Assembly (NCBI GenBank): GCA_036488585.1
Contig: DASXHH010000021.1
Location: 1,478-65,477, forward strand
Length of the DNA stretch: 64,000 nucleotides
Source: Candidatus Saccharimonadia bacterium
Lineage (GTDB): Bacteria > Patescibacteriota > Saccharimonadia > UBA4664
Direction of reading: 5' to 3'
The notes under the pieces are model-generated. The model searched no databases. It was given only the letters and a program-made list of their open reading frames with translations, and had not been told where the DNA came from. Each line of letters starts with the position of its first letter. Positions within the stretch are counted from its first letter, which is position 1. The translations under genes and the position numbers were made by a program. This document shows, piece after piece, positions 9,140 through 39,544 of the stretch.

Positions 9140-9219
9140 CACTCTTGCCCTATTCCGTCAAACCTGTTAAGGTATACCGACTGATCTTCCAGATAGCACC
9201 CAACCTGGCCAAGGAGGTC

Positions 9220-9624
9220 ATGGTGAGTACAACCACAAACGCTGGTCCTGGGCCAATTGGCAGCGCCATGCTGGATTTTATCGAAGCGCTCGCACGCGAT
9301 GACCGCCCGGTAATCGACCAATCTAAGTCCGAAGTTGTGCGACTCATGTCCATCAAGATCGAGCAACTGGTCGATCAGCGCGGCATGTCAATCACGGAAG
9401 CCAGGCGCGACGTCTTTAGAAACGTCCAGCGGCAGGTTATCCAGTTTGCCCCAAACGCTGAAATCGCCGATAAAGCCGCCGCGATGTTCAACGCTCTGCG
9501 GCCGCGTGACGAAACGGCCCGAGAGCAAGCCCGGCGGCTTCGCATCAGCCAAGTCAAATACCCAAGCGGCTATCGGACTGCCAAGCGGATGAGAGCTCTA
9601 GCTCAGACCGGTGACCGGCCATGA
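9220..9624 (+). CDS. hypothetical protein
   Basis: SD AAGGAGG at 9211-9217. Start is ATG 9220 or GTG 9223. Confidence 0.4.
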   Translation: MVSTTTNAGPGPIGSAMLDFIEALARDDRPVIDQSKSEVVRLMSIKIEQLVDQRGMSITEARRDVFRNVQRQVIQFAPNAEIADKAAAMFNALRPRDETAREQARRLRISQVKYPSGYRTAKRMRALAQTGDRP

Positions 9625-9953
9625 CAGCCGCCCCGAACATTAGGACCGGGGCAATCAACAAGCTCACCCGGATTCATATCCGACGGCTCCAGGTCCTCCG
9701 ATCCCAGCACCCGGATCACGAGCTGCTGATCACACTCAACCAAGAGGCCTCCCGGCTGCTCGAAAACGCTGTGTTCGCACGGCTGAGGGAGTTGCGCAAA
9801 AGCGGCCAAAACGCCTCCGACCTTCAAGACTATGCGCGCGCCATGCGTCGAAACGCGCTTCAGGCGGTCGCGGACACCATCGCCGCGGAGCAGCCGGATC
9901 TAATCCCGATGCTCCACCTGGTCTCCGGAAGTTCCACTTCACATCGCGCCTGA
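9621..9953 (+). CDS. hypothetical protein
   Basis: 110-aa ORF whose ATG overlaps the preceding stop. Confidence 0.35.
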   Translation: MTAAPNIRTGAINKLTRIHIRRLQVLRSQHPDHELLITLNQEASRLLENAVFARLRELRKSGQNASDLQDYARAMRRNALQAVADTIAAEQPDLIPMLHLVSGSSTSHRA

Positions 9954-10011
9954 CTAGTCCCTCACCCGGACCGGTCAGGCGCCTTAGCGTTTTATGCGTT
10001 AAGATAGACCC

Positions 10012-10947
10012 ATGTCGATATTTACTCTCGAAAACTCTACTTCCTATTTACGCGGGCAGTTCGTACCCTTCGCCGAGGCCAATCTCTCCATCGCCAGCTC
10101 GCCCATGCTCTACGGCCTCACCATTTACACCGTATTTAGCGCCAACTGGAACGCCGAGCATCACCAGCTTTATGCTTACCGCTTGCGCGAACATTACGAC
10201 CGTCTCTGCAATTCTGCGCGCATTCTCGATCTAGAAGATTTCCGCGCCCGTTACCCGTACGAAAAATTCGAAGAACTAATGCTCGACCTGTTACGCCGCA
10301 ACGGCGCCAAAGAAGACGTACTGGTAAGGGCCATGGTATTCGTGGATGAATTGGCCGCTGGCACCCGCATCCACGGCCTGAAGAATGAACTAGCCGTATT
10401 CGTATACCCGATCGGCGAAATCCTCGCCCTCACCGGTATTCATGCCTGCGTCTCGAGCTGGGTCCGCACCGCCGACAACATGATTCCGTCCCGCGCTAAA
10501 ATCAATGGCTCCTACGTAAACGCCAGCCTCATGAAGAACGAGGCGCTGGTAAACGGCTACGACGAAGCCATCGCGCTCGACGCCTATGGGCACGTCGCCG
10601 AAGGCACCGTCGCCAACCTGTTTTTGGTCCGACAAGGCAAACTCATCACCCCCGATACATCCACCGATATCCTCGAAGGCATCACGCGAGATTCCATCCT
10701 AAAAATCGCCACTGAGCTCGACATCCCCACCGCGGAGCGCAGCGTCGACCGTAGTGAGCTCTATGCCGCTGACGAAGCCATAATGGTGGGCAGCTCCGCC
10801 CGCATCACTCCAATTCTATCCATCGACCGGCGGCCCGTGGGCGACGGCCAGCCTGGCCCCGTCACCAAGAAACTAATGAAGCACTATCACGATCTCCAGC
10901 ACGGTATGCTGGAGCGCCACTGGCTGACCCCGGTTTACGAGCAATGA
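10012..10947 (+). CDS. class IV PLP aminotransferase (branched-chain amino-acid / D-amino-acid aminotransferase family)
   Basis: Fold-type IV layout with the conserved EGTVANLFLV...TP and ILEGITRDSIL blocks. Confidence 0.8.
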   Translation: MSIFTLENSTSYLRGQFVPFAEANLSIASSPMLYGLTIYTVFSANWNAEHHQLYAYRLREHYDRLCNSARILDLEDFRARYPYEKFEELMLDLLRRNGAKEDVLVRAMVFVDELAAGTRIHGLKNELAVFVYPIGEILALTGIHACVSSWVRTADNMIPSRAKINGSYVNASLMKNEALVNGYDEAIALDAYGHVAEGTVANLFLVRQGKLITPDTSTDILEGITRDSILKIATELDIPTAERSVDRSELYAADEAIMVGSSARITPILSIDRRPVGDGQPGPVTKKLMKHYHDLQHGMLERHWLTPVYEQ

Positions 10948-11858
10948 CACTCAAGGTTGGCACACGGGGGAGTAAGCTCGCGCTCATCCAGACCCAACTG
11001 GTGACCGAGGCACTGCAACAACTCGAACCAGGCCTTGAAATCAAAGTTGTAATTATCAAGACTGAGGGCGACAAGAACTTTGCGCCGATTCCCCTCGACA
11101 CCATCGGCAAAGCCTGGTTCACCGCCGAAATCGACCGAGCTCTTACTGAGCGCGATATCGACCTGGCCGTGCATAGCCTCAAGGATCTACCACTCACACT
11201 CGACGCTGGCCTCACCATGATTACTGTCTTGGAGCGCGCCGACCCGCGTGATGTGCTGGTGTCACGCTCCGGCCAAACCCTGGACCAACTGCCTCCCGGG
11301 GCCATCATCGGCACCGACAGTACCCGCCGTCGCGCGCTGCTGCTTCACCACCGGCCCGATCTCCAAGTAACCAGCCTGCGCGGCAACGTTCAAACCCGAC
11401 TGCGCAAGCTACAAGACCGCGAGTACGACGGCATTATTCTAGCCGCTGCCGGCCTGGACCGTCTCGGCGAACTCAGCAGAGTCAGCGAGTTTCTTGATCC
11501 CACTCGCTTCCCACCGTCCTCTGGCCAAGGCGCCTTGGCCGTAGAAATTCGCCGAGACGACACCCTGCTACTCAATCTGCTCCAACGTCTTGAGCACTCG
11601 GGCACTCTCGCCACCACCGCAGCCGAACGCGCCTTCTCGGCTACCATTGGCGGCGGTTGTAAGCTACCCGTGGCCTGCTATGCCCAAGCCGGCCATCGCC
11701 AACTACACCTTTACGGCATGATCGCCGAGCTAGGTGGTGACGGCATTCTGTTCGATCAGATCAGTGGCCCCATCAATCAGGCCACGGGGCTCGGCGAATC
11801 TCTCGCCCGCCGCCTGCTCGAAAAATGTTCCTTCAACTTTCAACCGGAGTACCAGTGA
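10944..11858 (+). CDS. hemC: porphobilinogen deaminase (hydroxymethylbilane synthase)
   Basis: LKVGTRGSKLALIQT... N-terminus, with the dipyrromethane-cofactor Cys in GGGCKLP. ATGA overlap with the upstream gene. Confidence 0.9.
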   Translation: MTLKVGTRGSKLALIQTQLVTEALQQLEPGLEIKVVIIKTEGDKNFAPIPLDTIGKAWFTAEIDRALTERDIDLAVHSLKDLPLTLDAGLTMITVLERADPRDVLVSRSGQTLDQLPPGAIIGTDSTRRRALLLHHRPDLQVTSLRGNVQTRLRKLQDREYDGIILAAAGLDRLGELSRVSEFLDPTRFPPSSGQGALAVEIRRDDTLLLNLLQRLEHSGTLATTAAERAFSATIGGGCKLPVACYAQAGHRQLHLYGMIAELGGDGILFDQISGPINQATGLGESLARRLLEKCSFNFQPEYQ

Positions 11859-12601
11859 ACAGCCGATTGGTGGTGCTCACCCGGGACGAAGCCGGTAACG
11901 CCGTTTGGCGCCGCCAGCTCGAAGCTCACGGTCTGGCCATCTACGGACTACCCTGTATCGAGACGGCCGCCGCTGAGCTCACTCCCGATATCGAACGCAC
12001 GTTTGAACACATCCGCGATTACCATTGGCTAGTCTTTTCTAGTGCTGCCGGCGTGCGCTATTTCCTAGAGCTAATGAGTAAGCTCGGCCTGCCACTCCGC
12101 GCTCTCACCGGCGCCTGGATTGCAGCCGTCGGCACGCAAACCGCCGATGCCATCCGCTCACTGGGCCTGCCGGTCACGTTCACGCCCTCCCGCCAGACCG
12201 CGTCCACCCTGGCCCAGGAGCTCAAACGCGTGAAGAGCCGTCGCATCCTGTTCTTGCGCACCGGCATCGCCGCCGATGAACCGATCGCCATTCTACGCGG
12301 CCGCTCCGCCGACGTTACCGACCTGCCCATCTACCAAACCCTGCCGCGTGAAGATCCCGATCCGGGCTTCAACCAGCTAGTCCGCGATCACGAAATCAGC
12401 CACATCGTATTCGCCAGCCCCTCAGCCGTCCACGGCTTCGGCCTTCGCCTCGCCGATCCCATAGTGCTCGAGCTGGCCCACGACTTGCCCACAGTCGCCA
12501 TCGGTCCCACCACCGCCCAAGCCGCCGAACAGGCCGGATTCCGCCAGTTACACGTTGCCGCTCGGCCCTCAGTTTCCGCCATCTTAAAGCTGCTATCATA
12601 A
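11825..12601 (+). CDS. hemD: uroporphyrinogen-III synthase
   Basis: HEM4-like two-lobe pattern (LVVLTRDEAGN..., ISHIVFASPSAV). An alternative start is the GTG at 11855 overlapping the hemC stop (GTGA). Confidence 0.75.
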   Translation: MFLQLSTGVPVNSRLVVLTRDEAGNAVWRRQLEAHGLAIYGLPCIETAAAELTPDIERTFEHIRDYHWLVFSSAAGVRYFLELMSKLGLPLRALTGAWIAAVGTQTADAIRSLGLPVTFTPSRQTASTLAQELKRVKSRRILFLRTGIAADEPIAILRGRSADVTDLPIYQTLPREDPDPGFNQLVRDHEISHIVFASPSAVHGFGLRLADPIVLELAHDLPTVAIGPTTAQAAEQAGFRQLHVAARPSVSAILKLLS

Positions 12602-12606
12602 TATCG

Positions 12607-13284
12607 ATGACAATGAACGATTGGCCCTACCACCAGTACCTGTTTTTCGAACTGGACGACAAATTCTACCGCCTGCCCAGCACCCGCCAACGTGAGCTCA
12701 AACGCGGCTTGCATGATCTGTTGCACCAGCTAAAAGACGACGTGCCCTTTATTCCGTATACCACGCTCGGCTTTAAACCCGGCACAACCTTTATGCTATG
12801 GCTACGTGCTGGCCAGCCCGAAGCCATTCAAGATGCGGCGCACGATCTCTTACGTAGCCGCTTAGGCCAATACCTCACCCTCACCCAGAGCCTATTCGGT
12901 ATCAGCCGCCAGTCCCAATACACTCGCAGTCCTCAAAAAACCGACCAAACCATCTTGCCCGACCTGCACCTGCCGTATTTGGTAATCTATCCTTTCACCA
13001 AAACCCCGGAATGGCACCTCATGCCCTATGATCAGCGCCACTCCTTAATGCGTGAACACATCTCACTTGGCACCAAATTCCCGGACATCCGCCAGTGCTT
13101 GCTCTATGCCTATGGCGTCGACGATCACGAGTTTATCGTGTCCTACGAGACGCCTACTCTCGAAGACTTCCAACAATTGGTCATGGACATGCGCGGCATT
13201 GAAGCACGCCGGTATACCTTAAACGATCTGCCGATTTACACTTGCATTTACAAAACCCCCGAGGAGTTCATCGAATGGCTGTAG
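12607..13284 (+). CDS. hemQ: coproheme decarboxylase / chlorite-dismutase-like HemQ
   Basis: Chlorite-dismutase-family C-terminal motifs (HSLMREHISLG, YGVDDHEFIVSYETPTLEDF) in a heme-operon context. Confidence 0.8.
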   Translation: MTMNDWPYHQYLFFELDDKFYRLPSTRQRELKRGLHDLLHQLKDDVPFIPYTTLGFKPGTTFMLWLRAGQPEAIQDAAHDLLRSRLGQYLTLTQSLFGISRQSQYTRSPQKTDQTILPDLHLPYLVIYPFTKTPEWHLMPYDQRHSLMREHISLGTKFPDIRQCLLYAYGVDDHEFIVSYETPTLEDFQQLVMDMRGIEARRYTLNDLPIYTCIYKTPEEFIEWL

Positions 13285-14297
13285 CGGATTTTAACGACAC
13301 CTTCCTGCGCGCCTGCCGCTTTGAGCCCACCGATTACACGCCGGTATGGTTTATGCGCCAAGCTGGCCGCTACATGCCAGAGTACCGCGCGCTCCGGCGC
13401 AAGCACGACGTGCTCACGCTTACCCGCACCCCTGAGCTAGCGGCCGAAATTAGCCTGCAACCGGTGCGCACACTCGGCGTAGACGCAGCCATCCTGTTCG
13501 CCGACATTATGCTGGTGCCAATCGCCATGGGCGCGGACGTCAAAATTGTGGACACGGTTGGCCCCGTCCTCGACGATCCAATCGACAGCCGCCCGTCCAT
13601 CGACCGGCTGCACCAATTTGCCCGCGCCGACATCGAATACCTTCGCCGCACCATTCAGATCCTGCGTGGCGAGCTCAAGATTCCGCTCATCGGCTTCTCC
13701 GGCGCGCCATTCACACTCGCCAGCTATCTCATCGAGGGCGCCCCCAGCCGCACCTGGCTCAAAACTAAACGCTTCATGTACGAGCAGCCCAAACTTTGGC
13801 ACGAGCTCATGGACAAGCTCGCCGAGGCCATTATTTTCTTTCTTCATGAACAAGTCGACGCCGGCGCTCAAGCCCTCCAAGTCTTCGATTCTTGGGTGGG
13901 TGCACTCAGCCCGGTCGACTTTCGCGAATTCGTCCTGCCCTACAACCGCCGCATCTTCACCGCCCTAGCAAGCACCAACGTGCCCCGCATCGCATTCGGC
14001 ACCGACACCGCCGGCATCCTTACTGATTTTGCCGACGTCGACTGCGAGGTGGTGGGCCTAGACTGGCGCCAGGACTTAGCCCAAGTCCGCCGCCTACTGC
14101 CCGACAAGGCCGTTCAAGGCAACCTCGACCCCGCCGTGCTGGCCTCCGGCTGGAAGGCCACCGAGCACCAAGCTGCCCAAATACTGGCATCAATGCCCAA
14201 CCGCCGCGGCTTCATCTTTAACCTCGGACACGGCGTCTGGAAAGAGGCCGACCCCGAAACTCTAAGGAGACTCGTCGATTATGTCCACACCCACTAA
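13275..14297 (+). CDS. hemE: uroporphyrinogen decarboxylase
   Basis: N-terminus FLRACRFEPTDYTPVWFMRQAGRYMPEYR is the URO-D signature. Its start overlaps the hemQ stop. Confidence 0.9.
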   Translation: MAVADFNDTFLRACRFEPTDYTPVWFMRQAGRYMPEYRALRRKHDVLTLTRTPELAAEISLQPVRTLGVDAAILFADIMLVPIAMGADVKIVDTVGPVLDDPIDSRPSIDRLHQFARADIEYLRRTIQILRGELKIPLIGFSGAPFTLASYLIEGAPSRTWLKTKRFMYEQPKLWHELMDKLAEAIIFFLHEQVDAGAQALQVFDSWVGALSPVDFREFVLPYNRRIFTALASTNVPRIAFGTDTAGILTDFADVDCEVVGLDWRQDLAQVRRLLPDKAVQGNLDPAVLASGWKATEHQAAQILASMPNRRGFIFNLGHGVWKEADPETLRRLVDYVHTH

Positions 14298-15216
14298 ACC
14301 CACCGGCATTCTGCTCATGACCTACGGCTCGGCCACCACTAGCCGCGATGCCGAGCCGTTCCTGAGTCATGTCTACCCGCACCCGTCTCAAGAGCTCATC
14401 GATGAATTCAAGCGCCGTTTCGACATCGTCGGTTCATCGCCACTCGTCCAGATCACCATCAACCAGGCCGCCGCACTCGAGCAACTGCTAGCTAGTCGAG
14501 TAGGAGAGGGCCATTACGCAGTAGAAGCCGGCATGCTCCATTCGACCCCCTTCATCAACGATGCCGTGGCCAAACTCAAAGCCCGCGGCGCCCATCGCAT
14601 CCTTGGCCTTCTGTTGTCGCCCCAATATTCACCGCACATCATGCGCGGCTACGATCAAGCCCTGGTCACAGCAGGGGAGAAGAGTGGTTTTAAGCCGAGC
14701 CAGGTTACCATGCTCGGCGAATGGTCCACCGAGCCCAAGTTCATCCAGCTGCTGTCAGACGGCCTCCTGCAACTGCGCACCGAACTCCAGGCCAAATACG
14801 GCCAGCCGATCCCAGTCGTTTTCACTACCCACAGCCTGCCCGAAAAGGTGGTAAAACGCGACCCGTCCTACCTGGATCAGTTGGAAGCTACCATGCAAGC
14901 CGTTGCGGGAGCTGCCCAGCTTCAGCCAGCCGAATATCAAGCCGCCTACCAAAGCGCCGGCCACACCCCCGAAGAATGGCTCAAACCCGATCTCAACGAT
15001 GTTATTGCCGGCCTCAAGGCCAAAAAGGTCCCGGCCGTAATCGTGGTGCCAATCCAATTTTTGGCCGACCATCTCGAAATTCTCTATGACCTTGATACCG
15101 CTGCACGTGAAGAAACTGAAGCCGGTGGCGTACATTACCACCGGTTGCCAGTCGCCAATCTCAACCCGCTCTTTATCGAGGCTCTGGCCGACCTCACTCA
15201 ACGCTCAGCAACCTAA
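14281..15216 (+). CDS. hemH: ferrochelatase (probably coproporphyrin ferrochelatase of the HemQ-type pathway)
   Basis: GILLMTYGS... N-terminus and a conserved His/Glu core, about 311 aa. Overlaps hemE by 17 nt. Confidence 0.85.
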   Translation: MSTPTKPTGILLMTYGSATTSRDAEPFLSHVYPHPSQELIDEFKRRFDIVGSSPLVQITINQAAALEQLLASRVGEGHYAVEAGMLHSTPFINDAVAKLKARGAHRILGLLLSPQYSPHIMRGYDQALVTAGEKSGFKPSQVTMLGEWSTEPKFIQLLSDGLLQLRTELQAKYGQPIPVVFTTHSLPEKVVKRDPSYLDQLEATMQAVAGAAQLQPAEYQAAYQSAGHTPEEWLKPDLNDVIAGLKAKKVPAVIVVPIQFLADHLEILYDLDTAAREETEAGGVHYHRLPVANLNPLFIEALADLTQRSAT

Positions 15217-15218
15217 AC

Positions 15219-16316
15219 CTAATACCGATACACCGCCGCCACCCGCGACGCCACTGGCATTTGGCTTTGGGGTAAGGCATAAGCCCGCCCGCCATGCTTC
15301 AGGGTCTCGCGAATTACGGCCTCCACAATCCCGTCGTAGCCATAACCAACCTCATTCTCGAGGTCGCCACCCATATAGAGCTGCTCCCGAAACACCTCAC
15401 TATCACGCACACCAGTCCCGTAGGCAAACATCAGCTCGCGCACCCGTCCTGCCTGGGCCGCCTGAAACACCTCCACCGCCACCCCCGATGCCCGTTCGGC
15501 GTGGGCGGCCAAGCTGCTATACTCCTCCTTCAGGTTTTCGAGTCGCCGGTCACGCAATCTACACACAATTTCCAAGGCCTGCTCATGCAACTGCTGAAGC
15601 CGGCCATCGCCAGGCCGAGGATGAATCGTTTCCTCTGCCACATTGAGCCCACACAATTCCTCACGCAACGTCTCCACCAGAGCGTCAGCGCCAGCAGCAA
15701 TTACTACCGCACCGGCCGGTTTCACCAAATCCGCGGCCTCCCGAGCCACTTGTTTCATAAACTTACCGATCTGGGCCGGCGGAAACCGGTCCGCATATTC
15801 GTCCATCGGCCGCTCACGGTTAAGTTCGGCCGGCCGAGCCACCCGCGTCGTCTGGATGCGCGGCATTTCGAGCTCCGTAAACTCCTGACGCCCTGCCCGG
15901 TACAGCCGCGGCTGGCCCAGCCTCAACTCCAGCACATAAAACGGCTCTGGCAGGTCAAATAAAGTTAAAAGCGGCCCAACTTTATACTGCTGGCCCACCG
16001 CCACCTCCTCAAGTAATACTAGCGGCACGAAGTAGTACTCCAACTTTCCCTTGCGTGTAAACAGGCATAATGTCTGTCTGCCAGTTGCCCAATTAATCTG
16101 GTCTGGTAGCTCTTCCAGTCGTTTTTGCCATTTAACCACTTCAGCCGACGCTCGCCGTTCCTCGCGCCCCATCTGCCGCGTGGCCTGCCCAATCAAAAAC
16201 TTTAGCCTGGTAGCATTTTCCCGAATATTCGGCACCACTGGCATATAAATTGTGAGACTCAGCTCACCGTTTGCTTCAAGTAATTCTAGAAACTTTTCCC
16301 TCGTCATTATCCGCAT
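15219..16316 (-). CDS. bacterial eRF1-like (baeRF family) protein
   Basis: N-terminus MTREKFLELLEANGELSLTIYMPVVP...RLKFLIGQA matches the conserved opening of bacterial eRF1/Pelota-like families. About 365 aa, which is typical. Confidence 0.5.
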   Translation of the reverse strand: MRIMTREKFLELLEANGELSLTIYMPVVPNIRENATRLKFLIGQATRQMGREERRASAEVVKWQKRLEELPDQINWATGRQTLCLFTRKGKLEYYFVPLVLLEEVAVGQQYKVGPLLTLFDLPEPFYVLELRLGQPRLYRAGRQEFTELEMPRIQTTRVARPAELNRERPMDEYADRFPPAQIGKFMKQVAREAADLVKPAGAVVIAAGADALVETLREELCGLNVAEETIHPRPGDGRLQQLHEQALEIVCRLRDRRLENLKEEYSSLAAHAERASGVAVEVFQAAQAGRVRELMFAYGTGVRDSEVFREQLYMGGDLENEVGYGYDGIVEAVIRETLKHGGRAYALPQSQMPVASRVAAVYRY

Positions 16317-16487
16317 GCTAAGTCAGGTTCCAGAGGAGATCTTTGTGCTTTTATCTAGAGGCTCATCTAGCTTCACAATTTAACTCATTACGAAAACGTC
16401 AAAGAACGGGCAGGTCATGACATAAATGCCCATACTATCCTAGAATCTTCGCCACCACGTATACTACGGATAGGTAACAGGTACATC

Positions 16488-17192
16488 ATGGCTACCAGCG
16501 ATCCAATCGCCACCCGCATCATCCGCCGCCGTCGCATCGCTGAAGACACCCAGGAACTGGCGCTGGCGCTGGCCCAGCCGCTCGAATTCCAGCCCGGCCA
16601 ATACATCGCCATTACCCTGCCCAATCTACCCGTCGCCCCGCCTTACCGGGTACGCGAATTCTCGATGGTATCTGCCCCAGGCGACCCCGAGCTCACCATC
16701 GCTTTTCGCGAATCGGACACCGCGTATAAACAAGCCATCCTCGACCCGGCCTACACCGGCCCCATTATCACCCGCGGCCCCACCGGCCTGTTTACGCTAC
16801 CCAGCCAGATCACCCAACCCCTCATCTTTATCGCTGGCGGCATCGGCGTCGCGCCGTTCATTAGCATGCTCAAACAATTAGTCCGCCAGCCCACCACCAT
16901 GCCCATAACACTGCTTCGCATCGAGTCCAGTCTCAGCCGGACCGCTTACCGCCCGGAGCTCCAGGGGCTCGAGCGCGCGCTGCCAAACCTGAACATAGTC
17001 GAGCATTTCGGCCGCATCGCCACTTCCTCTCAACTATCCGGTCTCATCCCGACCCTCACCCCCGAGTCGCAAGTTTTTATCGCTGGTCCGCTCGGCATGA
17101 CCGGCCACACCCGCACCCTCGTCCGCGAGTTCGGGGTCATGCCCTTAAGCATTCATATGGAAGAATTCACCGGCTACCCTGACCTCGATTAA
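16488..17192 (+). CDS. FAD/NAD(P)-binding oxidoreductase (ferredoxin-NADP reductase-like)
   Basis: An RxYS-like FAD motif (PYRVREFSMVS) and NAD-binding motif GGIGVAPFISML. Confidence 0.65.
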   Translation: MATSDPIATRIIRRRRIAEDTQELALALAQPLEFQPGQYIAITLPNLPVAPPYRVREFSMVSAPGDPELTIAFRESDTAYKQAILDPAYTGPIITRGPTGLFTLPSQITQPLIFIAGGIGVAPFISMLKQLVRQPTTMPITLLRIESSLSRTAYRPELQGLERALPNLNIVEHFGRIATSSQLSGLIPTLTPESQVFIAGPLGMTGHTRTLVREFGVMPLSIHMEEFTGYPDLD

Positions 17193-17197
17193 TAAGC

Positions 17198-17725
17198 CTA
17201 GCGCCGCTCGATTAACCCACGCACATAGGCCGCTTGACCTACATGCTGCAAATCATCGGCCAGCACGCTCACCAGTCTTACCCCCAGCATTACCGGCGGG
17301 TCCCAATTTTTGTCCACTACCCGCCCGTAATCCACCGGCTTCAAATCTCTAATATAATCTAGCGTTACCCTATGAACCGCCTCGTAGTAGCCACCCAACA
17401 GCCGGCCGCTGACCTTCACTGCCGCTACCTCGTCCGGGCCGTGCCCCCAGCCGGTCGCCGACTCGTCAAACGGCAGCCCAAACCTGTCCGACCAACCCTG
17501 AGGCCAAACCTGTGGCTGATCAGCCACCCCAGCCAGGTGATCATCCTGAATGCGCGCCAGGTGCCACACCAACCATGCGATTGAATTGGCAGCGGGGGAG
17601 GGCCGGAAACTCAAATCCTCCTCGCTCAGGCCGCCTAGCACCTTTCGCACCGCCTCATCAACCCGGCTAAATCCATCAATTAATATCTCGTTAGTATCCA
17701 AAAACCCTTCTCCTCCAAAAAACAT
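17198..17725 (-). CDS. DinB/YfiT-like (DUF664 / mycothiol-dependent isomerase N-terminal-like) protein
   Basis: IAWLVWHLARIQDDHLAGV and a C-terminal HVGQAAYVRG His-triad pattern. Confidence 0.6.
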   Translation of the reverse strand: MFFGGEGFLDTNEILIDGFSRVDEAVRKVLGGLSEEDLSFRPSPAANSIAWLVWHLARIQDDHLAGVADQPQVWPQGWSDRFGLPFDESATGWGHGPDEVAAVKVSGRLLGGYYEAVHRVTLDYIRDLKPVDYGRVVDKNWDPPVMLGVRLVSVLADDLQHVGQAAYVRGLIERR

Positions 17726-18315
17726 GGTAAACCCCGGACGACTCGTGAGCCGTCCGGGGCTGGTTGTTAGCTAAGTATGCCACCCATTTTTGCCTCCCGG
17801 CTCTAATTGCGGGTAGCGCACCAGGCGCCCGCGCTATGGACAGTTGCAGTCAGGCCTCACGAGAAGGGATAGTCGGGCAATCCCGCGTCTCCTCGCCAGG
17901 TAGCGGAGTCATTAAATGATCCACCCCGTGTACTCCGCATCCTGAACTGGATCGGCCTTTTCTAACCGACCATTGTTTCCATGAACCTCAGCTTAGCCGA
18001 GGACCACAGAAGCTTAAAGACACCCTTCATCTGCAGAGCCGCAGATGATCTAGTGAGCGTAAATTGGCCCCGCTCGTGTACTAATCTCGACGAGGCAGAC
18101 ACCCACGTTATTTCTAATACACGATGTCGCACCCCATTGCTATGGGAACTTCAACCGATCTTCGGCGTTCTACAATTACCCCCGACGGCAAGCCCTATTA
18201 TCAGATGACTGAACCAAATTAGAAGCGGAAGTGTCCATATTGTGGATCACCACATTAACTTGGCTTTTTAGTAAATTTCTGCTATAATAAAGTTAGTTGA
18301 CAATCTTCCTGGCAA

Positions 18316-18690
18316 TTGGGGACTTTCATGAAAAGATTCCTGCTGGTGGTAATCCCCGCAATCGGGTACACCACAATAATCCTCCTGTGGCCAAATACCG
18401 ACACATTGCCGGCACAGATCATGCTTGCCGTGGCTGCGTTCACCCTGTTGCTTCCGGTGGCTTTTCATCTGCCGGAAGCCGCCAAAGGGTCATCAGAGGC
18501 TATCCGCGATGCCCTTAGCGCACAAGTAGGGGGCTTCCTCCTGGCGATCATCGCCGGTGGAATAATGATTGCCGTCACTAGGCCCTCGTATGCCGCATGG
18601 GGTGGAGTAGCGAGCTCACTCGCCTTCGCCAATTTCTCTACCTACGCGGTGAGAAATCTCAACGCCTACCGCAACAGGGGAAACGCATAA
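18316..18690 (+). CDS. small membrane protein
   Basis: 4 predicted TM helices. There is a TATAAT / TTGACA-like AT-rich promoter just upstream. Confidence 0.45.
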   Translation: MGTFMKRFLLVVIPAIGYTTIILLWPNTDTLPAQIMLAVAAFTLLLPVAFHLPEAAKGSSEAIRDALSAQVGGFLLAIIAGGIMIAVTRPSYAAWGGVASSLAFANFSTYAVRNLNAYRNRGNA

Positions 18691-18826
18691 CAATCAACTC
18701 GGGGTGGCTCCGGCATTGGCTCGAGTCACCTTACCCAGCGGCCTAACGCGTAAGCTTAGGCCGCTTCACTTTACAGCACATCACCATGTCAGATGTTTGA
18801 ACTACGATTCGAGAACTCGCGAACCG

Positions 18827-19465
18827 CTAACTTGGTTCAACTGCATTCATTGCGCCCTTAACTAAGACTGCTAAATCAGATGCACTTTGCAATGAATAGC
18901 TAAAAGGCTTATCAACGTGATCATAGATTTCACGAACCCAATTCTTCCACCCCGCCTTGTTCAACGGCTCCAGGCCCCACGCCTTAAGCTCGTGATCTAC
19001 CTTCCTCATAACCTTGTCCTCGCTACCCGCAGGGACTTTAAGCGCCTCAAGATCGAACAAGGTTGATATTCGTGAATAGTCAGAGAGCGACAGCACATCA
19101 CGTAGTGAATACTCGAACTCATCCGACTGCACAACATACATTCGACGCAACGATATCATCGCATCGGTATACCCCATTAGGGCAAAATAATGCAGGCTAG
19201 CCTCAAGCGAAGACTCTGGCACTAGATGCAGGAGAACTTCCTGCCGAGCATTATCTGCAAGACCACCACTTTTAGCCACCAACTCCTGAAGTCCGTCATT
19301 GATACGAAGAGTTACGGTACGATGACGATCCTCACCAGAGAAATCGATCATTACGCGAGTGATTTTTTGTACCGATCCAAGGGCCTGCATACGATCAAGC
19401 GTTGCATTTCTCTGGGCTGCAGACAGGATCGCCCGAGCTTCAATTTCAATTTTTGACATGCTCAA
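18827..19465 (-). CDS. hypothetical protein, weak CYTH-like (EIEAR... N-terminus); noticeably lower GC than the backbone
   Basis: 212-aa ORF with N-terminus KIEIEARAIL and later R-x-R and acidic motifs, weakly reminiscent of CYTH triphosphate-tunnel enzymes. Confidence 0.35.
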   Translation of the reverse strand: MSMSKIEIEARAILSAAQRNATLDRMQALGSVQKITRVMIDFSGEDRHRTVTLRINDGLQELVAKSGGLADNARQEVLLHLVPESSLEASLHYFALMGYTDAMISLRRMYVVQSDEFEYSLRDVLSLSDYSRISTLFDLEALKVPAGSEDKVMRKVDHELKAWGLEPLNKAGWKNWVREIYDHVDKPFSYSLQSASDLAVLVKGAMNAVEPS

Positions 19466-19568
19466 ATATTACTATCACTTCAAACAACGGCCAACCTGAT
19501 ACCCATAAAAATAAGGCTCCTTCAAGCCCCATCCTTAGTCAGAACCTAATCGGTACACCACAGCGCAC

Positions 19569-19587
19569 GATATTCGAACCAAAATCC
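19569..19587. repeat. repeat M2 copy 1 (GATATTCGAACCAAAATCC)
   Basis: 19-nt motif with a GTTCGAAC-type palindromic core. Shared with 21338..21356 and 21908..21926. Confidence 0.7.
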
Positions 19588-19609
19588 AGCAGAGTGCTAA
19601 ACTGCCAGT

Positions 19610-19876
19610 ATGATAAACAAGACCTTCACCGGAACCATCGGAGTCGAAATCAAAGGCAGCATATGGCCATGTGTTTTATGGTCGGAATCGAAAGAAGTAC
19701 TAGGAACTGGCAAGGCGACAAAGGTAAGGGCATCGGTTGACGGAAATCCGGTCATCACCGCCCTAATGCCATCAGGCTCGGGACCGCATATGCTGCCTAT
19801 AAGTAAGCCGCTTTTGAAAAAGCTGCACAAACAGATCGGTGATAGTGTAACCGTTGTTATTGTAGAGTTAGCTTAA
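19610..19876 (+). CDS. DUF1905-family protein
   Basis: FTGTIGVEIKGSIWPCV...VRASVDGNPVITALMPSGSGPHMLPISKPLLKKL matches the DUF1905 pattern. Confidence 0.55.
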   Translation: MINKTFTGTIGVEIKGSIWPCVLWSESKEVLGTGKATKVRASVDGNPVITALMPSGSGPHMLPISKPLLKKLHKQIGDSVTVVIVELA

Positions 19877-20164
19877 CAGCTTCTCAATCGCCCCATTACT
19901 CAGCCATAAAAAAGAGGCACCTTAAGTGCCTCTTTTTACTCAGGAAGACTTTGCGCCTATGTGGCTAACTAACTAACAAACTATTGTACAAACATCGGAC
20001 TAACAAACTTTCTTAACTCGACAGGCCACATTAAGAGCAACGGACTAAACTATTGGTCTTCCGCATATAAAACTATCAATACGATCGTTCAGAGTCAAGA
20101 GATATTTTTGATCATTTGCCCGGGAAGGGTAGGCAACAAAATAATTGCTTACACAAGCTTTAAT

Positions 20165-20189
20165 ATAAGCATAAGCTCTATGGTGCCCC
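20165..20189. repeat. repeat M1 copy 1 (ATAAGCATAAGCTCTATGGTGCCCC)
   Basis: 25-nt motif shared with 21874..21898 and 22415..22439. Its 3' part mimics the tRNA-Leu 3' end (TGGTACCGC). Confidence 0.8.
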
Positions 20190-20396
20190 TTAGCGGATGC
20201 TTAGCGAACCAGAGATTAAAAAGCGGATCGACAAGAAGACGCCCCTCCTAGGCGCCTTCGAGAAGTATCGAAGATGCCCCGAGGGGCGGAAGTCAGGCCC
20301 TAGCCCTAAAGCCAAGACCGTAGAGAAGCCCTCCATCGGTGACGATCATACTGCCAACCTTCATGGAGATTCCGAAGATGGCTAGAAGCGACTTAG

Positions 20397-20696
20397 TTAC
20401 CTGAACATGTCAGGAGCATAGGTCGACGCCACTGTGCCGTGCGGCACAGACCATAGCTCGAGTCTTGTCCAGACTCGCATTTCCGGGCTAGCCTCCCGTA
20501 GAACCTGCGCGAGATCGGCCGGCTCCGTAACATCAAATGCATACTCGATGCCTTCGTTGGCAACGATTGCTACCAGTGCACGTCGGTACTCCGCTCGAGG
20601 CTGTTCGCCGTCAGACTGGTAATCAATCCGCCGCGCCGATCGGTCCTCGATCGCCTCTCGCACACTCTCAATTGAAACGTACTTCCATCCAGGCAT
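20397..20696 (-). CDS. hypothetical protein (island cargo)
   Basis: 99-aa ORF with SD GGGGA 8 nt upstream. Confidence 0.4.
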   Translation of the reverse strand: MPGWKYVSIESVREAIEDRSARRIDYQSDGEQPRAEYRRALVAIVANEGIEYAFDVTEPADLAQVLREASPEMRVWTRLELWSVPHGTVASTYAPDMFR

Positions 20697-20842
20697 GGCA
20701 TATTCCCCTCGATGCCCTCTGACGATTGGTACATTATAACATAAATATGTAAACCGTCAAACCACACAAGACCTCACTAGATACAGCGTATTGTAAAAGC
20801 AATAATGCAATGTTATAATAACTATCGCCCTACCGCCGGAAA

Positions 20843-21205
20843 ATGGAGCAACAGATGCATCCTGGCAGAACAATGTTGCGGCTAAGCGGACTCATGTTCT
20901 TCGCCGCACTAATTGCATTGATCAGCGGCCTGGTCGCCGATCACGCTCGCAACGGCTTCATCGCAGCCCTCCCACTCACGCTCGCGGGCTGCGGCCTGTT
21001 CCTTATAAGCAGCCACCAACGCTCCTTCCAGAGCTCCGTACTATCACTCATAGGCTCTTTCTTGGTGTGCTCAGCCGTACTGCTAGGCGTTCTTCTCGGC
21101 CTAGTCGTGACAGCAGCTCCTGCTGCGCTAATCGGTCTAGGGCTCTTCATGGTAGGCCTCGTCCTCTGGGTAACCGGAGGCCTACTGCTTCGTCGAAGCC
21201 AATAG
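20843..21205 (+). CDS. small polytopic membrane protein (island cargo)
   Basis: 4 TM helices. An alternative start is at 20855. Confidence 0.45.
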   Translation: MEQQMHPGRTMLRLSGLMFFAALIALISGLVADHARNGFIAALPLTLAGCGLFLISSHQRSFQSSVLSLIGSFLVCSAVLLGVLLGLVVTAAPAALIGLGLFMVGLVLWVTGGLLLRRSQ

Positions 21206-21337
21206 CCTGACTGGCAGCAACCATCCGCGGCGCGAAGGGGCAGGGTGGGCGAACGGCCCCACCACCCCCACGGCTCAAGTATATGCTTGGGTCGTTTTTC
21301 GTTTAGAAACTAGGCTTCATCACTTTCGCGCTCGAGA

Positions 21338-21356
21338 GATGTTCGAACCAGAATCC
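21338..21356. repeat. repeat M2 copy 2 (GATGTTCGAACCAGAATCC)
   Basis: Seen directly. Confidence 0.7.
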
Positions 21357-21474
21357 GCGCAGCAGCAGTAACAGCGACTCCAACAATTCTTTAAATCGGA
21401 TATAGACAGTGCAGCGCCACCCCGCAAAACGGAGTGGCGCTTTAGGCACAAGAAGTAATGAGCCGACGCTTGGG

Positions 21475-21774
21475 TCACATCACGCGAGACAAGACAGTGA
21501 GCGCCTCTCCCGCCGAGGGGTGCGTGGCATATGGCGTACCACCCGAGCCGGTGCCCGTGATGATGCTCTCAAACCAGGGACGCGAATCACCCGCGTGGTA
21601 CATGAGACAGATCTCGCGGCCGCCCAGGAGACGACGCCTGGCTTCGAATCCTCCGTTCATCGTCTCTCCGACATATCGCCAGCCATCGCGCGATCTTGCT
21701 TCGACTGCGGACTGGAAGTCCGCGACCGTAATCGCTGAGGACTGGCTTACCTTCGGATCGTCATCAGACATAGC
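21475..21774 (-). CDS. hypothetical protein (island cargo)
   Basis: 99 aa from MSDDD with SD GAGG 9 nt upstream. The 269-aa extension in the ORF track is probably an over-call. Confidence 0.4.
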   Translation of the reverse strand, partial: AMSDDDPKVSQSSAITVADFQSAVEARSRDGWRYVGETMNGGFEARRRLLGGREICLMYHAGDSRPWFESIITGTGSGGTPYATHPSAGEALTVLSRVM

Positions 21775-21873
21775 TGATAACCTCATTTCGATCTTGTGAG
21801 AAGTTCTACAGACTAAAATATTATAACACGCGAACGACGAGAACACAAGTTTCCAAAGCCATGGATCGGTATA

Positions 21874-21898
21874 ATAAGCATAAGCTCGATGGTACACC
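21874..21898. repeat. repeat M1 copy 2 (ATAAGCATAAGCTCGATGGTACACC)
   Basis: Seen directly. Immediately followed by M2 copy 3. Confidence 0.8.
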
Positions 21899-21907
21899 AC
21901 AGTCATC

Positions 21908-21926
21908 GATGTTCGAACTAAAATTC
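21908..21926. repeat. repeat M2 copy 3 (GATGTTCGAACTAAAATTC)
   Basis: Seen directly. Confidence 0.7.
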
Positions 21927-22038
21927 GTTTTGCGAATAGTCGATAGTATGCCCATCCGACCGGCACAAGCATTGTGTTTTTGACACAACCATGATATAAT
22001 ATTAATGTCAATTCAGACGAAGCCGGAAGGGACGTGCC

Positions 22039-22224
22039 ATGGCTAGGCACAAGCACAAGTGGGACAAATGGATCGATTTCCCCGGAACCGCCCGGAACAT
22101 TAGAGGCCTGCGTGGCCTCGGCGTGCGGCGCGAGATGCAGCAGGTCCGGAACTGCACAAACGAAAAAGGCACCTGCGACAAGGGCTGGAAAGAGACCCGC
22201 TGGCATCCAACCAAACGCTGGTAG
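22039..22224 (+). CDS. small basic hypothetical protein (61 aa)
   Basis: ORF inside the tRNA-proximal module. Its 3' end and the downstream GC hairpin are tandemly duplicated. Confidence 0.3.
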   Translation: MARHKHKWDKWIDFPGTARNIRGLRGLGVRREMQQVRNCTNEKGTCDKGWKETRWHPTKRW

Positions 22225-22294
22225 TTGCAAAGCGGCCGCCCACCCTCCAACTAGACGCTGGTAGTCGCAAAGCGGCCGCCCCACCCTCCATGGG
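22213..22294. repeat. tandem duplication, 2 x about 40 bp (ACGCTGGTAGT(T/C)GCAAAGCGGCCGCC(C)CACCCTCCA)
   Basis: Seen directly. It duplicates the ORF stop region plus a GC-rich hairpin. Confidence 0.75.
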
Positions 22295-22414
22295 TAGGGC
22301 GGCCGTCATACTTCTATAAGCACAAAAATGCCCGAAAGCTCACGCCTGGCGAAAATATTCGACTACAGCTTTATTGAACGGCCCCAAATAAATAAAAGAC
22401 CCACGAGGTCTTTT

Positions 22415-22439
22415 ATAAGCATAAGCTTTATGGTACCGC
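22415..22439. repeat. repeat M1 copy 3 (ATAAGCATAAGCTTTATGGTACCGC), overlapping the tRNA-Leu 3' end
   Basis: Seen directly. Its last 9 nt are the complement of the tRNA acceptor end plus CCA. Confidence 0.8.
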
Positions 22440-22516
22440 TGGTCGGACTCGAACCGACACGGAGTTGCCCCCACTTGATTTTGAGTCAAGCGTGTCTACC
22501 ATTCCACCACAGCGGC
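22431..22516 (-). tRNA. tRNA-Leu (anticodon CAA), class II with long variable arm and encoded CCA
   Basis: Reverse complement reads GCCGCTG-TG-GTGG...anticodon loop CTCAAAA...variable arm...GGTTCGAGTCC...CAGCGGT-A-CCA, 86 nt. Confidence 0.85.
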
Positions 22517-22629
22517 ATATGTTAAGTTGTTAAAGGTATTATATCATTGTATAATATCAAATTGCTAGTTGTGCTTGGTGGAAGCACGTAAACCAGACTA
22601 TCATAGTTACAGTAGGGTAAACAAACGTT

Positions 22630-33262: not shown

Positions 33263-33271
33263 GAGGACCCA

Positions 33272-36188: not shown

Positions 36189-36201
36189 GAAGGAGATAGA
36201 T

Positions 36202-36447: not shown

Positions 36448-36467
36448 TACTGTCCACCGGTACAACT

Positions 36468-39542: not shown

Positions 39543-39544
39543 CC

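What the first reader, a model, noticed from the sequence alone, without database searches (positions are those of the whole stretch)
17770..22620. Low-GC, gene-poor island next to tRNA-Leu(CAA), built from repeat-delimited mini-modules with no integrase
Immediately 3' of the tRNA-Leu gene (22431-22516, minus strand) lies about 4.8 kb of AT-richer sequence with only small ORFs. These include a weak CYTH-like ORF, a DUF1905 protein, two 99-aa ORFs, small membrane proteins and a 61-aa basic ORF. Two motif families recur three times each. M1 is 25 nt (ATAAGCATAAGCT-YK-ATGGT-RC-MCC, at 20165, 21874 and 22415), and its right part copies the tRNA acceptor end plus CCA (TGGTACCGC). M2 is 19 nt (GATRTTCGAACYARAATYC, at 19569, 21338 and 21908) with a palindromic GTTCGAAC core. 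Each M2 is followed about 510-600 bp later by an M1. That defines three modules (19569-20189, 21338-21898 and 21908-22439) that each carry one small ORF. The pattern looks like serial site-specific integrations, or satellite-like mini-elements, at the tRNA 3' end. M1 would act as the att core and M2 as an arm or recombinase-binding site. The recombinase must be supplied in trans or has been lost.
Basis: seen in the sequence. Interest (0 to 1): 0.65.

Follow-up and report, generated by a model that had tools for sequence, protein, structure and literature searches.

The report
Gene-cassette stack at a tRNA end
Next to the tRNA-Leu gene of this uncultured soil Saccharibacterium (a tiny, host-dependent bacterium) sits a stack of small one-gene DNA cassettes, each bounded by the same recombination-site-like junction and none carrying its own insertion enzyme. 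Related species have the same junctions with different genes, so this is a conserved gene-capture hotspot.

Summary
The repeats are real. M1 and M2 each occur three times, against about 0.02-0.05 expected by chance. The window is from a Saccharimonadia (CPR) genome.

M1 and M2 are two parts of one junction: an element-borne tRNA trailer, the centre TGGTAC (the tRNA CCA end), and a conserved arm. There are three trailer types and two arm types, and they combine freely around the centre in at least 12 related genomes. They always lie 3' of tRNA-Leu(CAA), in one orientation, and flank different cargo, including toxin-antitoxin pairs, enzymes and orphan ORFs.

A conserved 292-aa gene lies 34 bp from the tRNA in some relatives and 13.3 kb away here. 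Empty sites therefore exist, and the true insert is 9140-22430.

No recombinase lies in the window, and only one was found among about 60 related loci: L016 has a large serine recombinase abutting the same tRNA. Both arm types carry CGAAC 5 bp further from the centre than the tRNA does, which matches serine-integrase attP versus attB geometry.

Best reading: serial site-specific accretion of integrase-less cassettes, similar to SCC or CIME elements. The recombinase class is inferred and current mobility is not shown.

The parts
22431..22516 (-). tRNA-Leu(CAA). Its 3' end (TGGTAC on the + strand, 22431-22436) is the anchor and crossover point of the array. Reading inward it acts as the attB-type half-site, GGTAC-N13-CGAAC.
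   Evidence: ARAGORN; Rfam tRNA 60 bits; spacing regex
22413..22436 (+). Junction J5: type-1 trailer (ATAAGCATAAGCT, M1 copy 3) plus TGGTAC, joined to the tRNA body. The hairpin at 22395-22414 is the tRNA terminator and is supplied by the last cassette.
   Evidence: The same trailer sits next to the tRNA in L002, L013, L020 and L095.
21872..21927 (+). Junction J4: type-1 trailer (M1 copy 2), TGGTAC, then arm a (ACCACAGTCATCGATGTTCGAACTAAAATTC, which contains M2 copy 3). This is an intact attP-like cassette-cassette junction.
   Evidence: nhmmer 41.7 bits, E 8e-11; N18 spacing
21928..22412 (+). Cassette e: 61-aa basic ORF (22039-22224) with its own extended -10 promoter and Shine-Dalgarno sequence, plus hairpin 22273-22305.
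   Evidence: no Pfam match
21337..21357 (+). Junction J3 (remnant): only the outer half of arm a is left (M2 copy 2, GATGTTCGAACCAGAATCC). Trailer and centre are lost.
   Evidence: nhmmer E 5e-3
21358..21871 (-). Cassette d: 98-aa ORF (21475-21771, minus strand). It is an orphan, with no homologue other than itself among 5.8 billion proteins.
20163..20210 (+). Junction J2: type-1 trailer (M1 copy 1), TGGTGC, then arm b (CCCTTAGCGGATGCTTAGCGAAC). It is a second arm family with the same N18 spacing.
   Evidence: Arm b recurs in L078, L074 (twice), L020 and L089.
20211..21336 (.). Cassette c: 99-aa ORF (20397-20696, minus), 120-aa membrane ORF (20843-21205, plus) and terminator 21270-21295. The 62-aa ORF at 20197-20385 is doubtful.
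19533..19589 (+). Junction J1: type-3 trailer (CCTTAGTCAGAACCTAATC, preceded by a hairpin), GGTAC, then arm a (contains M2 copy 1).
   Evidence: nhmmer E 5e-8; type-3 trailers in L010, L098 and L092
19590..20162 (+). Cassette b: DUF1905 gene (19610-19876) and hairpin 19909-19937.
   Evidence: Pfam 4.9e-13. A 76%-identical homologue sits in another junction-bounded array, L089.
18777..18814 (+). Junction J0 (decayed): a degenerate arm a, including the fourth M2-like copy at 18792.
   Evidence: 3 mismatches; nhmmer E 2e-4
18815..19532 (-). Cassette a: 212-aa ORF (18827-19465, minus strand), family unknown.
17770..18776 (.). Older part of the low-GC stretch: about 550 bp with no ORF or Rfam match, then a 124-aa membrane ORF (18316-18690).
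9140..17769 (.). Distal, older part of the insert with no recognisable junctions. It holds two unknown ORFs, an aminotransferase IV, HemC, HemD, ChdC-like, HemE, HemH, baeRF, an NAD-binding protein and DinB/MST.
   Evidence: Pfam. None of these genes lies 3' of tRNA-Leu in 58 relatives.
8261..9139 (+). Conserved 292-aa gene, the ancestral neighbour of the tRNA 3' end and the far boundary of the hotspot.
   Evidence: tblastn distances from 34 bp to 13.3 kb in 16 loci

Best explanation
The stretch is the tRNA-proximal, youngest part of a stack of small cassettes (0.5-1.7 kb, one or two genes each, each with its own promoter). They were inserted one after another by site-specific recombination at the 3' end of tRNA-Leu(CAA).

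Each cassette has the form [arm - cargo - terminator hairpin - trailer - TGGTAC]. Insertion at the tRNA's TGGTAC gives the tRNA a new trailer and terminator from the cassette's right end. It pushes the previous trailer outward, where it now abuts the new cassette's arm. This makes the internal junctions trailer+TGGTAC+arm (M1+M2). Older junctions further from the tRNA decay.

The cassettes encode no recombinase, so the enzyme must act in trans. The most likely class is a large serine recombinase like the one that abuts the same tRNA in relative L016. The arms would then be attP-type half-sites that imitate the tRNA T-arm, with the recognition motif CGAAC moved 5 bp outward.

Shown: the anatomy, its conservation, the empty sites, and the free combination of junction halves.
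Inferred: serial insertion, the position of the crossover, and action in trans.
Speculative: the serine class of the enzyme.
For: 1. The repeats are far above chance.
2. The same junctions occur in at least 12 related genomes or contigs: L002, L005, L008, L015, L020, L074, L075, L076, L078, L089, L092 and L098. They always lie in tRNA orientation and, where the tRNA is on the contig, 3' of it.
3. The cargo between junctions differs everywhere:
   - YefM-YoeB (L075) and VapBC (L074) toxin-antitoxin pairs
   - a short-chain dehydrogenase (L008) and a methyltransferase (L005)
   - DUF2127 (L002), and a cupin with an IS200 inserted beside it (L020)
   - an APH-like kinase (L092)
   - orphan ORFs in this window
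4. Insert size between the conserved 292-aa gene and the tRNA runs from 34 bp to 13.3 kb.
5. Three trailer types combine freely with tRNA, arm a or arm b around an invariant GGTAC. That places the exchange point there; 6 bp is too short for homologous recombination.
6. Relatives without the arms show plain att-type duplications of trailer plus tRNA end, 18-35 nt long. 'Empty' mini-cassettes also exist (L058, and L092 8756-8860).
7. All 14 arm copies read GGTAC-N18-CGAAC and every tRNA-Leu reads GGTAC-N13-CGAAC. A 5-bp outward shift of the zinc-ribbon-domain motif in attP relative to attB half-sites is the published rule for serine integrases (PMC3783163).
8. L016 has a 539-aa Resolvase+Recombinase+Zn_ribbon protein, with a Toprim primase beside it, directly abutting tRNA-Leu(CAA). 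L090 has a related gene abutting tRNA-Lys and ending in the same hairpin.
9. The junction has no conserved fold on either strand, so it is a sequence-specific DNA site.
Against: - No recombinase lies in the 64-kb window or in about 60 related loci except L016. L016's own trailer and far end do not show the M1 or arm motifs, so the enzyme-site link is indirect.
- The junction lacks the left-right dyad symmetry usual for serine-integrase sites (my reading).
- Canonical serine integrases do not insert into attR, so serial stacking needs a Ccr-like relaxed enzyme.
- No excised circle, empty allele or cassette reordering was seen within a species. 24 contigs of one species and 3 assemblies of this strain are identical.
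- The one strain difference found (L092 versus L095) also replaced the tRNA gene and 64 nt upstream of it, so it is a homologous replacement.
- The DUF1905 gene sits on different sides of its junction in the window and in L089, so cassette limits are not fixed.
- Neither arm type was found in viral contigs.
Confidence: 0.68

Rival explanations
1. The same accretion array, but built by a tyrosine integrase encoded elsewhere (the classic tRNA-island or CIME route). M1 would be the identity core and the arm a core-type or arm-type Int binding site.
For: Tandem accretion with integrase-less att-flanked remnants is well documented for tyrosine integrases at tRNA 3' ends (PMC5704250; tycheposon islands). 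The identity blocks of 18-35 nt fit a tyrosine-type core. Insertion into attL or attR is normal for these enzymes.
Against: No tyrosine recombinase was found in about 1.3 Mb of loci by tblastn or phmmer with XerD, or by a motif search, nor in the Pfam lists. That test is of limited sensitivity because the query sequence was recalled from memory. The only recombinases seen at tRNA ends in this lineage are serine enzymes. The exact +5 bp motif shift has no role in tyrosine systems.
Confidence: 0.17
2. No site-specific enzyme is involved. The locus is a replacement-type flexible island, exchanged by homologous recombination after natural transformation, and the conserved ~55-nt junctions merely serve as homology patches for shuffling cassettes.
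For: The one within-species difference (L092 versus L095) is a homologous replacement. All 19 mismatches lie within 150 nt covering the tRNA and its upstream region, followed by 7.48 kb of identity. Saccharibacteria are naturally competent (my own knowledge).
Against: This does not explain why junction halves recombine at a 6-bp centre. It does not explain why two unrelated arm families keep CGAAC at exactly N18. It does not explain why every junction begins with the tRNA's CCA end, or the att-type duplications and empty mini-cassettes.
Confidence: 0.08
3. M1 and M2 are regulatory or processing signals (promoter, operator, terminator, or a small RNA) repeated in front of small genes.
For: M1 contains TATAAG-like hexamers. 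The motifs are intergenic, and each module has its own small ORF.
Against: The cargo genes lie in both orientations and have their own promoters. There is no conserved fold or covariation on either strand and no Rfam match. The motifs occur only at this hotspot, always in tRNA orientation, with unrelated cargo.
Confidence: 0.04
4. The arms are decayed 3' halves of duplicated tRNA-Leu genes (pseudo-tRNA debris), or the array is an integron-like attC array.
For: The arms start with TGGTAC and contain a T-loop-like TTCGAAC. The overall layout, with one-gene cassettes and toxin-antitoxin cassettes, resembles integron arrays.
Against: Arm a is about 85-100% identical across species whose neighbouring proteins are about 55-63% identical, yet it differs from every tRNA allele and carries a constant 5-nt insertion. 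There is no attC-type hairpin or R''/R' core sites and no IntI.
Confidence: 0.03

Closest known systems
SCC/ECC 'cassette chromosome' islands of staphylococci and enterococci (Ccr large serine recombinases, inserted at the 3' end of rlmH)
   Same: Insertion occurs at the 3' end of a conserved single-copy gene that is restored by the element. Direct att repeats of tens of nt flank each element. Cargo is very variable. Remnants without the recombinase persist, and elements stack in tandem (PMC6222049; stacking and ccr-less pseudo-SCC elements are from my own knowledge). A large serine recombinase sits at this very site in relative L016.
   Different: The target is a tRNA end, not rlmH. The cassettes are 0.5-2 kb, against 20-60 kb. 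No ccr homologue is present. The junction sequences are unrelated. The link between recombinase and site is unproven here.
CIMEs and tandem accretion at tRNA genes (ICE/IME biology)
   Same: These are att-flanked elements that lack integration genes. They sit in tandem at the 3' end of a tRNA gene, and newer elements insert at the att site that contains the gene end (PMC5704250).
   Different: CIMEs are thought to be decayed ICEs or IMEs of many kb and use tyrosine integrases. Here intact junctions bound single genes, in many species, with no trace of decayed integration or transfer genes.
Tycheposon-built tRNA islands of Prochlorococcus
   Same: A streamlined genome has flexible islands next to tRNA genes. 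Successive integrations push older elements inward, and partial-tRNA scars are scattered through the island (bioRxiv 10.1101/2020.12.28.424599).
   Different: Tycheposons carry their own tyrosine (or serine) recombinase and replication genes, and their repeats are partial tRNAs. Here the repeat shares only 6 nt with the tRNA, and the rest is trailer plus a dedicated arm.
Integron cassette arrays and CALINs
   Same: They form ordered arrays of one-gene cassettes, each ending in a recombination site. Toxin-antitoxin cassettes are present, and arrays can lack a nearby integrase.
   Different: The junctions are conserved in primary sequence and have no attC hairpin. The cassettes carry their own promoters and lie in both orientations. 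The array is anchored at a tRNA end. No IntI is present.
Serine-integrase attP/attB pairs (A118/LI, Bxb1, phiC31)
   Same: The same distal motif lies 5 bp further from the centre in the element-type half-site than in the host-type half-site (PMC3783163).
   Different: Only the right half-sites can be compared. The left halves show no matching motif or dyad symmetry. No cognate enzyme has been identified.

Membership tests
tRNA-anchored island built by site-specific integration (accretion array) | Direct repeats that include the 3' end of the target tRNA bound the inserted segments | tested here: met
   M1 occurs three times with TGGTAC or TGGTGC. Repeats of 18-35 nt, made of trailer plus tRNA end, occur in L058, L018 and L078.
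tRNA-anchored island built by site-specific integration (accretion array) | Empty and occupied alleles of the same site among relatives | tested here: met
   The conserved 292-aa gene lies 34-70 bp from the tRNA in L027, L025 and L023, and up to 13.3 kb away in others. Within a species, only a homologous replacement was seen.
tRNA-anchored island built by site-specific integration (accretion array) | A cognate integrase, encoded in the element or elsewhere in the genome | tested here: inconclusive
   None in the window or in about 60 loci, except the large serine recombinase in L016.
tRNA-anchored island built by site-specific integration (accretion array) | Excision or circular intermediates | not testable with these tools
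   This needs reads or PCR. The three assemblies of this strain are identical.
CIME (cis-mobilizable element) | att sites kept on both sides, integration and transfer genes absent | tested here: met
   Junctions J1, J2, J4 and J5 bound cassettes that have no recombinase.
CIME (cis-mobilizable element) | Derived by decay of an ICE or IME and mobilised in cis by an adjacent one | tested here: not met
   The cassettes hold no remnants of integration or transfer genes, and no ICE or IME is adjacent.
Large-serine-recombinase att sites | Distal (ZD) motif 5 bp further out in attP-type than in attB-type half-sites | tested here: met
   N18 in 14 arm copies against N13 in all tRNA-Leu genes. The rule is from PMC3783163. 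The match was noticed after the fact.
Large-serine-recombinase att sites | Quasi-symmetric left and right half-sites around a central dinucleotide | tested here: not met
   The left half (trailer) shares no motif with the right half by inspection of alignment A1.
Large-serine-recombinase att sites | A cognate large serine recombinase acting on the site | tested here: inconclusive
   A large serine recombinase abuts tRNA-Leu in L016, but with a different trailer and no arm a or b.
Integron cassette array / CALIN | attC sites: imperfect palindromes that fold as single strands, with R''/L''-L'/R' boxes | tested here: not met
   The consensus fold is -0.5 to -2.6 kcal/mol with no covariation on either strand.
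Integron cassette array / CALIN | IntI integrase with attI and Pc next to the array | tested here: not met
   No tyrosine recombinase lies near the array. The neighbours are a sortase, a PEGA protein and MreB.
Structured RNA / Rfam family | Match to a covariance model, or conserved base pairs | tested here: not met
   Only the tRNA matched in 17000-23500 at E<=1. No covariation was seen.

The most novel reading that the evidence does not exclude
Soil Saccharibacteria have a dedicated gene-capture platform that works like an integron but is built differently. Single-gene cassettes are captured serially at the CCA end of tRNA-Leu(CAA) by a trans-encoded, Ccr-like large serine recombinase. Its element-side half-sites (two families, arms a and b) imitate the tRNA T-arm, with the recognition motif displaced by 5 bp. 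Each cassette brings the tRNA a fresh trailer and terminator.
Probability: 0.3. Interest if true: 0.8.

Novelty: new variant of a known kind. Interest (0 to 1): 0.6.

Why it matters
CPR/Patescibacteria have tiny genomes, and how they gain genes is poorly known. Two full-text literature searches found nothing on tRNA islands or cassette arrays in them.

Here a single site accounts for 0 to more than 13 kb of lineage-specific DNA. In this genome that DNA includes a partial heme pathway. The junction anatomy is defined well enough to test.

If the recombinase is found, it would come with natural attB (tRNA-Leu end) and attP-type (trailer-TGGTAC-arm) sites. That would give a site-specific integration tool for a group that has almost no genetic tools. 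It would also add a serine-integrase system whose attP half-site visibly mimics a tRNA gene.

Tried and rejected
- Structured RNA or attC-like hairpin: RNAalifold on 13 junctions, both strands, gave no structure and no covariation. Rfam matched only the tRNA.
- Pseudo-tRNA: I tried by hand to fold the arm as a T-arm plus acceptor. It is 5 nt too long and has no T-stem pairing.
- dif/Xer site: the inner CATAA resembles a XerC arm, but there is no TTATG XerD arm.
- IS200/IS605 ends: the TnpA in L020 is an independent IS with its own hairpins, sitting inside a cupin cassette.
- Phage or satellite origin: M1, arm a and arm b are all absent from viral contigs. The one viral hit to the tRNA 3' end is a phage tRNA array. 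The L016 recombinase has no close relative in viral contigs.
- Similarity to Bxb1 attP (GTGGTGTAC): the attP string is confirmed in the literature, but the match lies in the opposite orientation relative to the centre, so I dropped it.
- Cargo homologues as mobility markers: the 98-aa ORF is an orphan. DUF1905 has 2 homologues. One is in another junction-bounded array (L089). The other (contigs L090/L091) lies in a junction-free variable region.
- Strain polymorphism: the window strain is identical in 3 assemblies, and 24 contigs of one species are identical. The L092/L095 pair turned out to be a homologous replacement.
- Far end of the L016 element: only an 8-nt TGGTACCG match at 2556, which is not significant.
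- Caveat on the tyrosine-recombinase search: it used an E. coli XerD sequence recalled from memory, so a negative result is only moderately strong.

Full report
**1. What is there**

The window carries one tRNA, tRNA-Leu(CAA), at 22431-22516 on the minus strand. GC drops from about 0.58 to 0.47-0.54 between 18 and 22 kb.

M1 (ATAAGCATAAGCTNNATGGT) occurs at 20165, 21874 and 22415 and nowhere else in 64 kb, even with 3 mismatches. The chance expectation is 0.02. M2 occurs at 19569, 21338 and 21908, with a 3-mismatch copy at 18792. The chance expectation is 0.05.

A 34-nt repeat (19552 and 21891) shows that the right end of M1 and M2 belong to one unit, GGTACACCACAG-N5-GATRTTCGAACYAAAAT. Only DUF1905 has a Pfam match among the small ORFs. 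The 'CYTH-like' call is not supported, and the two 99-aa ORFs are unrelated.

The same sequence was assembled three times independently: an NCBI MAG, a JGI contig (L077, 99.99% identical over 20.8 kb) and a Logan contig (L001). The repeat order is therefore not an assembly artefact.

**2. Organism and locus**

Using the adjacent sortase as an anchor retrieved 58 Saccharimonadia (CPR/Patescibacteria) loci. Almost all have tRNA-Leu(CAA) directly upstream of the sortase.

None of the window's genes between 9140 and 22430 occurs 3' of the tRNA in any relative. A conserved 292-aa gene (window 8261-9139) is the ancestral neighbour of the tRNA 3' end. Its distance to the tRNA varies widely:
- 34, 38 and about 70 bp in L027, L025 and L023
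- 246-443 bp in four loci
- 1.3-1.8 kb in five loci
- 4.3, 5.7 and 6.7 kb in L080, L084 and L013
- 13.3 kb in this window

Empty sites therefore exist. The tRNA 3' end is an insertion hotspot, and the real insert here is 9140-22430.

**3. The junctions in relatives**

Arm a (GGTAC-ACCACAG-N5-GATGTTCGAAC...) is found in L002, L005, L008, L015, L020, L074, L075, L076, L089, L092 and L098. It is always in the orientation of the tRNA and, where the tRNA is on the contig, 0.5-4 kb 3' of it. It is often present in two or more copies.

The sequence after M1 at 20165 is a second arm type. Arm b (GGTRC-CCCTTAGCGG-N5-TTGCGAAC) recurs in L078, L074 (twice), L020 and L089.

To the left of GGTAC there are three trailer families, each usually preceded by a terminator-like hairpin:
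- type 1: AAGCATAAGYT, which is M1-left
- type 2: AATAATTnC
- type 3: hairpin plus CTTAGTyyGA (window 19533-19551)

Each trailer type is found joined to the tRNA and to arm a. Types 1 and 2 are also found joined to arm b. The three empty-site genomes lack these trailers.

In one species, strain L095 has ATAAGCATAAGCTGTA|TGGTACC, while strains L092 and L097 have an unrelated trailer. So M1-left is not host sequence. It is the right end of inserted DNA.

Free combination of left and right halves around an invariant 5-6 bp centre is what a site-specific crossover at TGGTAC would produce. Homologous recombination cannot act on 6 bp.

**4. Cargo**

Segments between junctions carry one or two genes, and the genes differ in every genome:
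- YefM-YoeB (L075) and VapBC (L074) toxin-antitoxin pairs
- HIT, HAD and peptidase S51 genes (L074)
- a short-chain dehydrogenase (L008) and a methyltransferase (L005)
- DUF2127 (L002)
- a cupin, with an unrelated IS200 inserted beside it (L020)
- an APH-like kinase (L092)
- small membrane proteins and orphan ORFs

The window's 98-aa ORF has no homologue among 5.8 billion proteins. Its DUF1905 gene has a 76%-identical homologue in another junction-bounded array, L089. There, however, the gene lies on the other side of its junction.

'Empty' mini-cassettes exist: a 35-nt repeat around about 140 bp in L058, and half an arm plus hairpin plus trailer in L092. Relatives without arms show ordinary att-type duplications of trailer plus 7-19 nt of the tRNA end (L018, L078, L058).

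**5. What the junction is not**

It has no conserved secondary structure or covariation on either strand. It has no Rfam match and no attC-like hairpin. Cargo genes lie in both orientations and have their own promoters, so a promoter or operator reading does not fit.

Arm a is 85-100% identical among species whose flanking proteins are about 55-63% identical. It differs from every tRNA allele, so it is not decaying tRNA debris. In one species the junction is visibly degenerate and fixed in 24 contigs. In the window the junctions furthest from the tRNA are the most decayed (nhmmer 41.7, 32.8 and 21.4 bits at 21890, 19550 and 18777). This agrees with insertion at the tRNA end and ageing outward.

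**6. The enzyme**

No recombinase is present in the window (Pfam on all large ORFs). Crude tyrosine and serine searches across about 1.3 Mb of loci found nothing, with one exception.

L016 has a 539-aa large serine recombinase (Resolvase, Recombinase and Zn_ribbon_recom domains), with a Toprim primase beside it. It lies directly 3' of tRNA-Leu(CAA), and its reading frame runs into the tRNA. L090 has a related gene abutting tRNA-Lys, ending in the same hairpin. Serine-recombinase elements therefore do use tRNA 3' ends in this lineage.

There is also independent support from geometry. All 14 arm copies of both types read GGTAC-N18-CGAAC, while every tRNA-Leu reads GGTAC-N13-CGAAC. In serine integrases the zinc-ribbon-domain motif occupies half-site positions 16-24 in attP and 11-19 in attB, which is exactly a 5-bp shift (PMC3783163). 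Counting back from CGAAC with that rule puts the crossover at the AC of TGGTAC. That is the point where tRNA and arm sequences diverge.

Several points count against the serine model:
- The left halves show no matching motif or dyad symmetry.
- L016's own ends lack M1 and the arms.
- Canonical serine integrases do not insert into attR, so a relaxed, Ccr-like enzyme would be needed.

I therefore rate the accretion model at about 0.7, and the serine class at about 0.4 within it.

**7. Mobility today**

Mobility today is not shown. The only within-species difference is between L092 and L095. To the right of the tRNA, 7.48 kb are identical. All 19 mismatches lie in the first 150 nt, which cover the tRNA gene and 64 nt upstream of it. 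To the left there is no homology. That is a homologous replacement which imported another tRNA allele together with an M1-ended cassette. So homologous exchange, plausibly after natural transformation, also shapes this locus.

**8. Comparison with known systems**

In function, the closest systems are these:
- SCC/ECC cassette chromosomes: a large serine recombinase, the 3' end of a conserved gene as target, direct att repeats, variable cargo and recombinase-less remnants (PMC6222049).
- CIME and tandem accretion at tRNA genes (PMC5704250).
- Tycheposon-built tRNA islands.

This array differs in three ways. The cassettes are of integron size, with one gene each. The junction has a two-part, mix-and-match structure that shares only 6 nt with the tRNA. 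The arrays lack a recombinase in many species. It fails the defining tests for integrons. I file it as a new variant of a known kind.

Noticed in passing
window 10012-15216: There is a run of heme-pathway genes: aminotransferase IV, HemC, HemD, ChdC/chlorite-dismutase-like, HemE (URO-D) and HemH (ferrochelatase). It lies inside the variable insert 3' of tRNA-Leu, and no relative has it at this site. Rhizosphere Saccharibacteria were reported to have only the last heme-modifying step and to scavenge heme (PMC6031116), so this looks like an acquired partial coproporphyrin-type pathway.
   Followed up: partly
L016 7497-9116 and L090 18268-19902: Large serine recombinase genes whose 3' ends run into a tRNA gene on the opposite strand (tRNA-Leu(CAA) in L016, tRNA-Lys(TTT) in L090). 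Both end in the same hairpin, AAAAGCCTCCGnAGAGGCTG. In L016 the gene is accompanied by a Toprim primase, a DUF5659 protein and a WapI-like protein. This may be a family of small integrative elements in Saccharimonadia.
   Followed up: partly
L010, L011, L012 (also L038, L043, L044, L046, L048, L049, L051, L055): The tRNA-Leu-sortase segment is inverted relative to MreB/PEGA on one side and the 292-aa gene on the other. One inversion end sits at the tRNA 3' end, the same point as the insertion hotspot.
   Followed up: no
L092 9805-9954 versus L095 440-589: Two strains that are 100% identical over the next 7.48 kb carry different tRNA-Leu(CAA) alleles. The alleles differ by compensatory changes in the anticodon stem and variable arm, plus 9 SNPs in the 64 nt upstream of the tRNA. 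This marks a sharp recombination-tract end just upstream of the tRNA.
   Followed up: yes
window 17770-18315: About 550 bp with no ORF of 80 aa or more, no Rfam match and no junction motif, lying between DinB and the first small membrane ORF. It could be a decayed cassette or an unknown non-coding feature.
   Followed up: no
window 30931-41293: A GC-rich block (0.62-0.68) with a ParA-like ATPase, an 849-aa AAA_10 (VirB4-like) ATPase, large unknown proteins and an NlpC/P60+GDSL protein. It looks like a type IV secretion-like cluster. It contains no recombinase.
   Followed up: partly
L020 8780-9365: An IS200-family element (160-aa Y1 transposase with terminal hairpins) is inserted inside a junction-bounded cupin cassette.
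   Followed up: partly
window 20197-20385: The start codon of the 62-aa ORF lies inside the conserved arm-b DNA. The homologous DNA in L078 has ACG in place of the ATG. The ORF is probably not a gene.
   Followed up: partly
L090 7400-8586: A ThsB-TIR (Thoeris-like) gene and many small ORFs lie in another variable region, which also holds the 69%-identical DUF1905 homologue. This region has no arm or trailer junctions.
   Followed up: no
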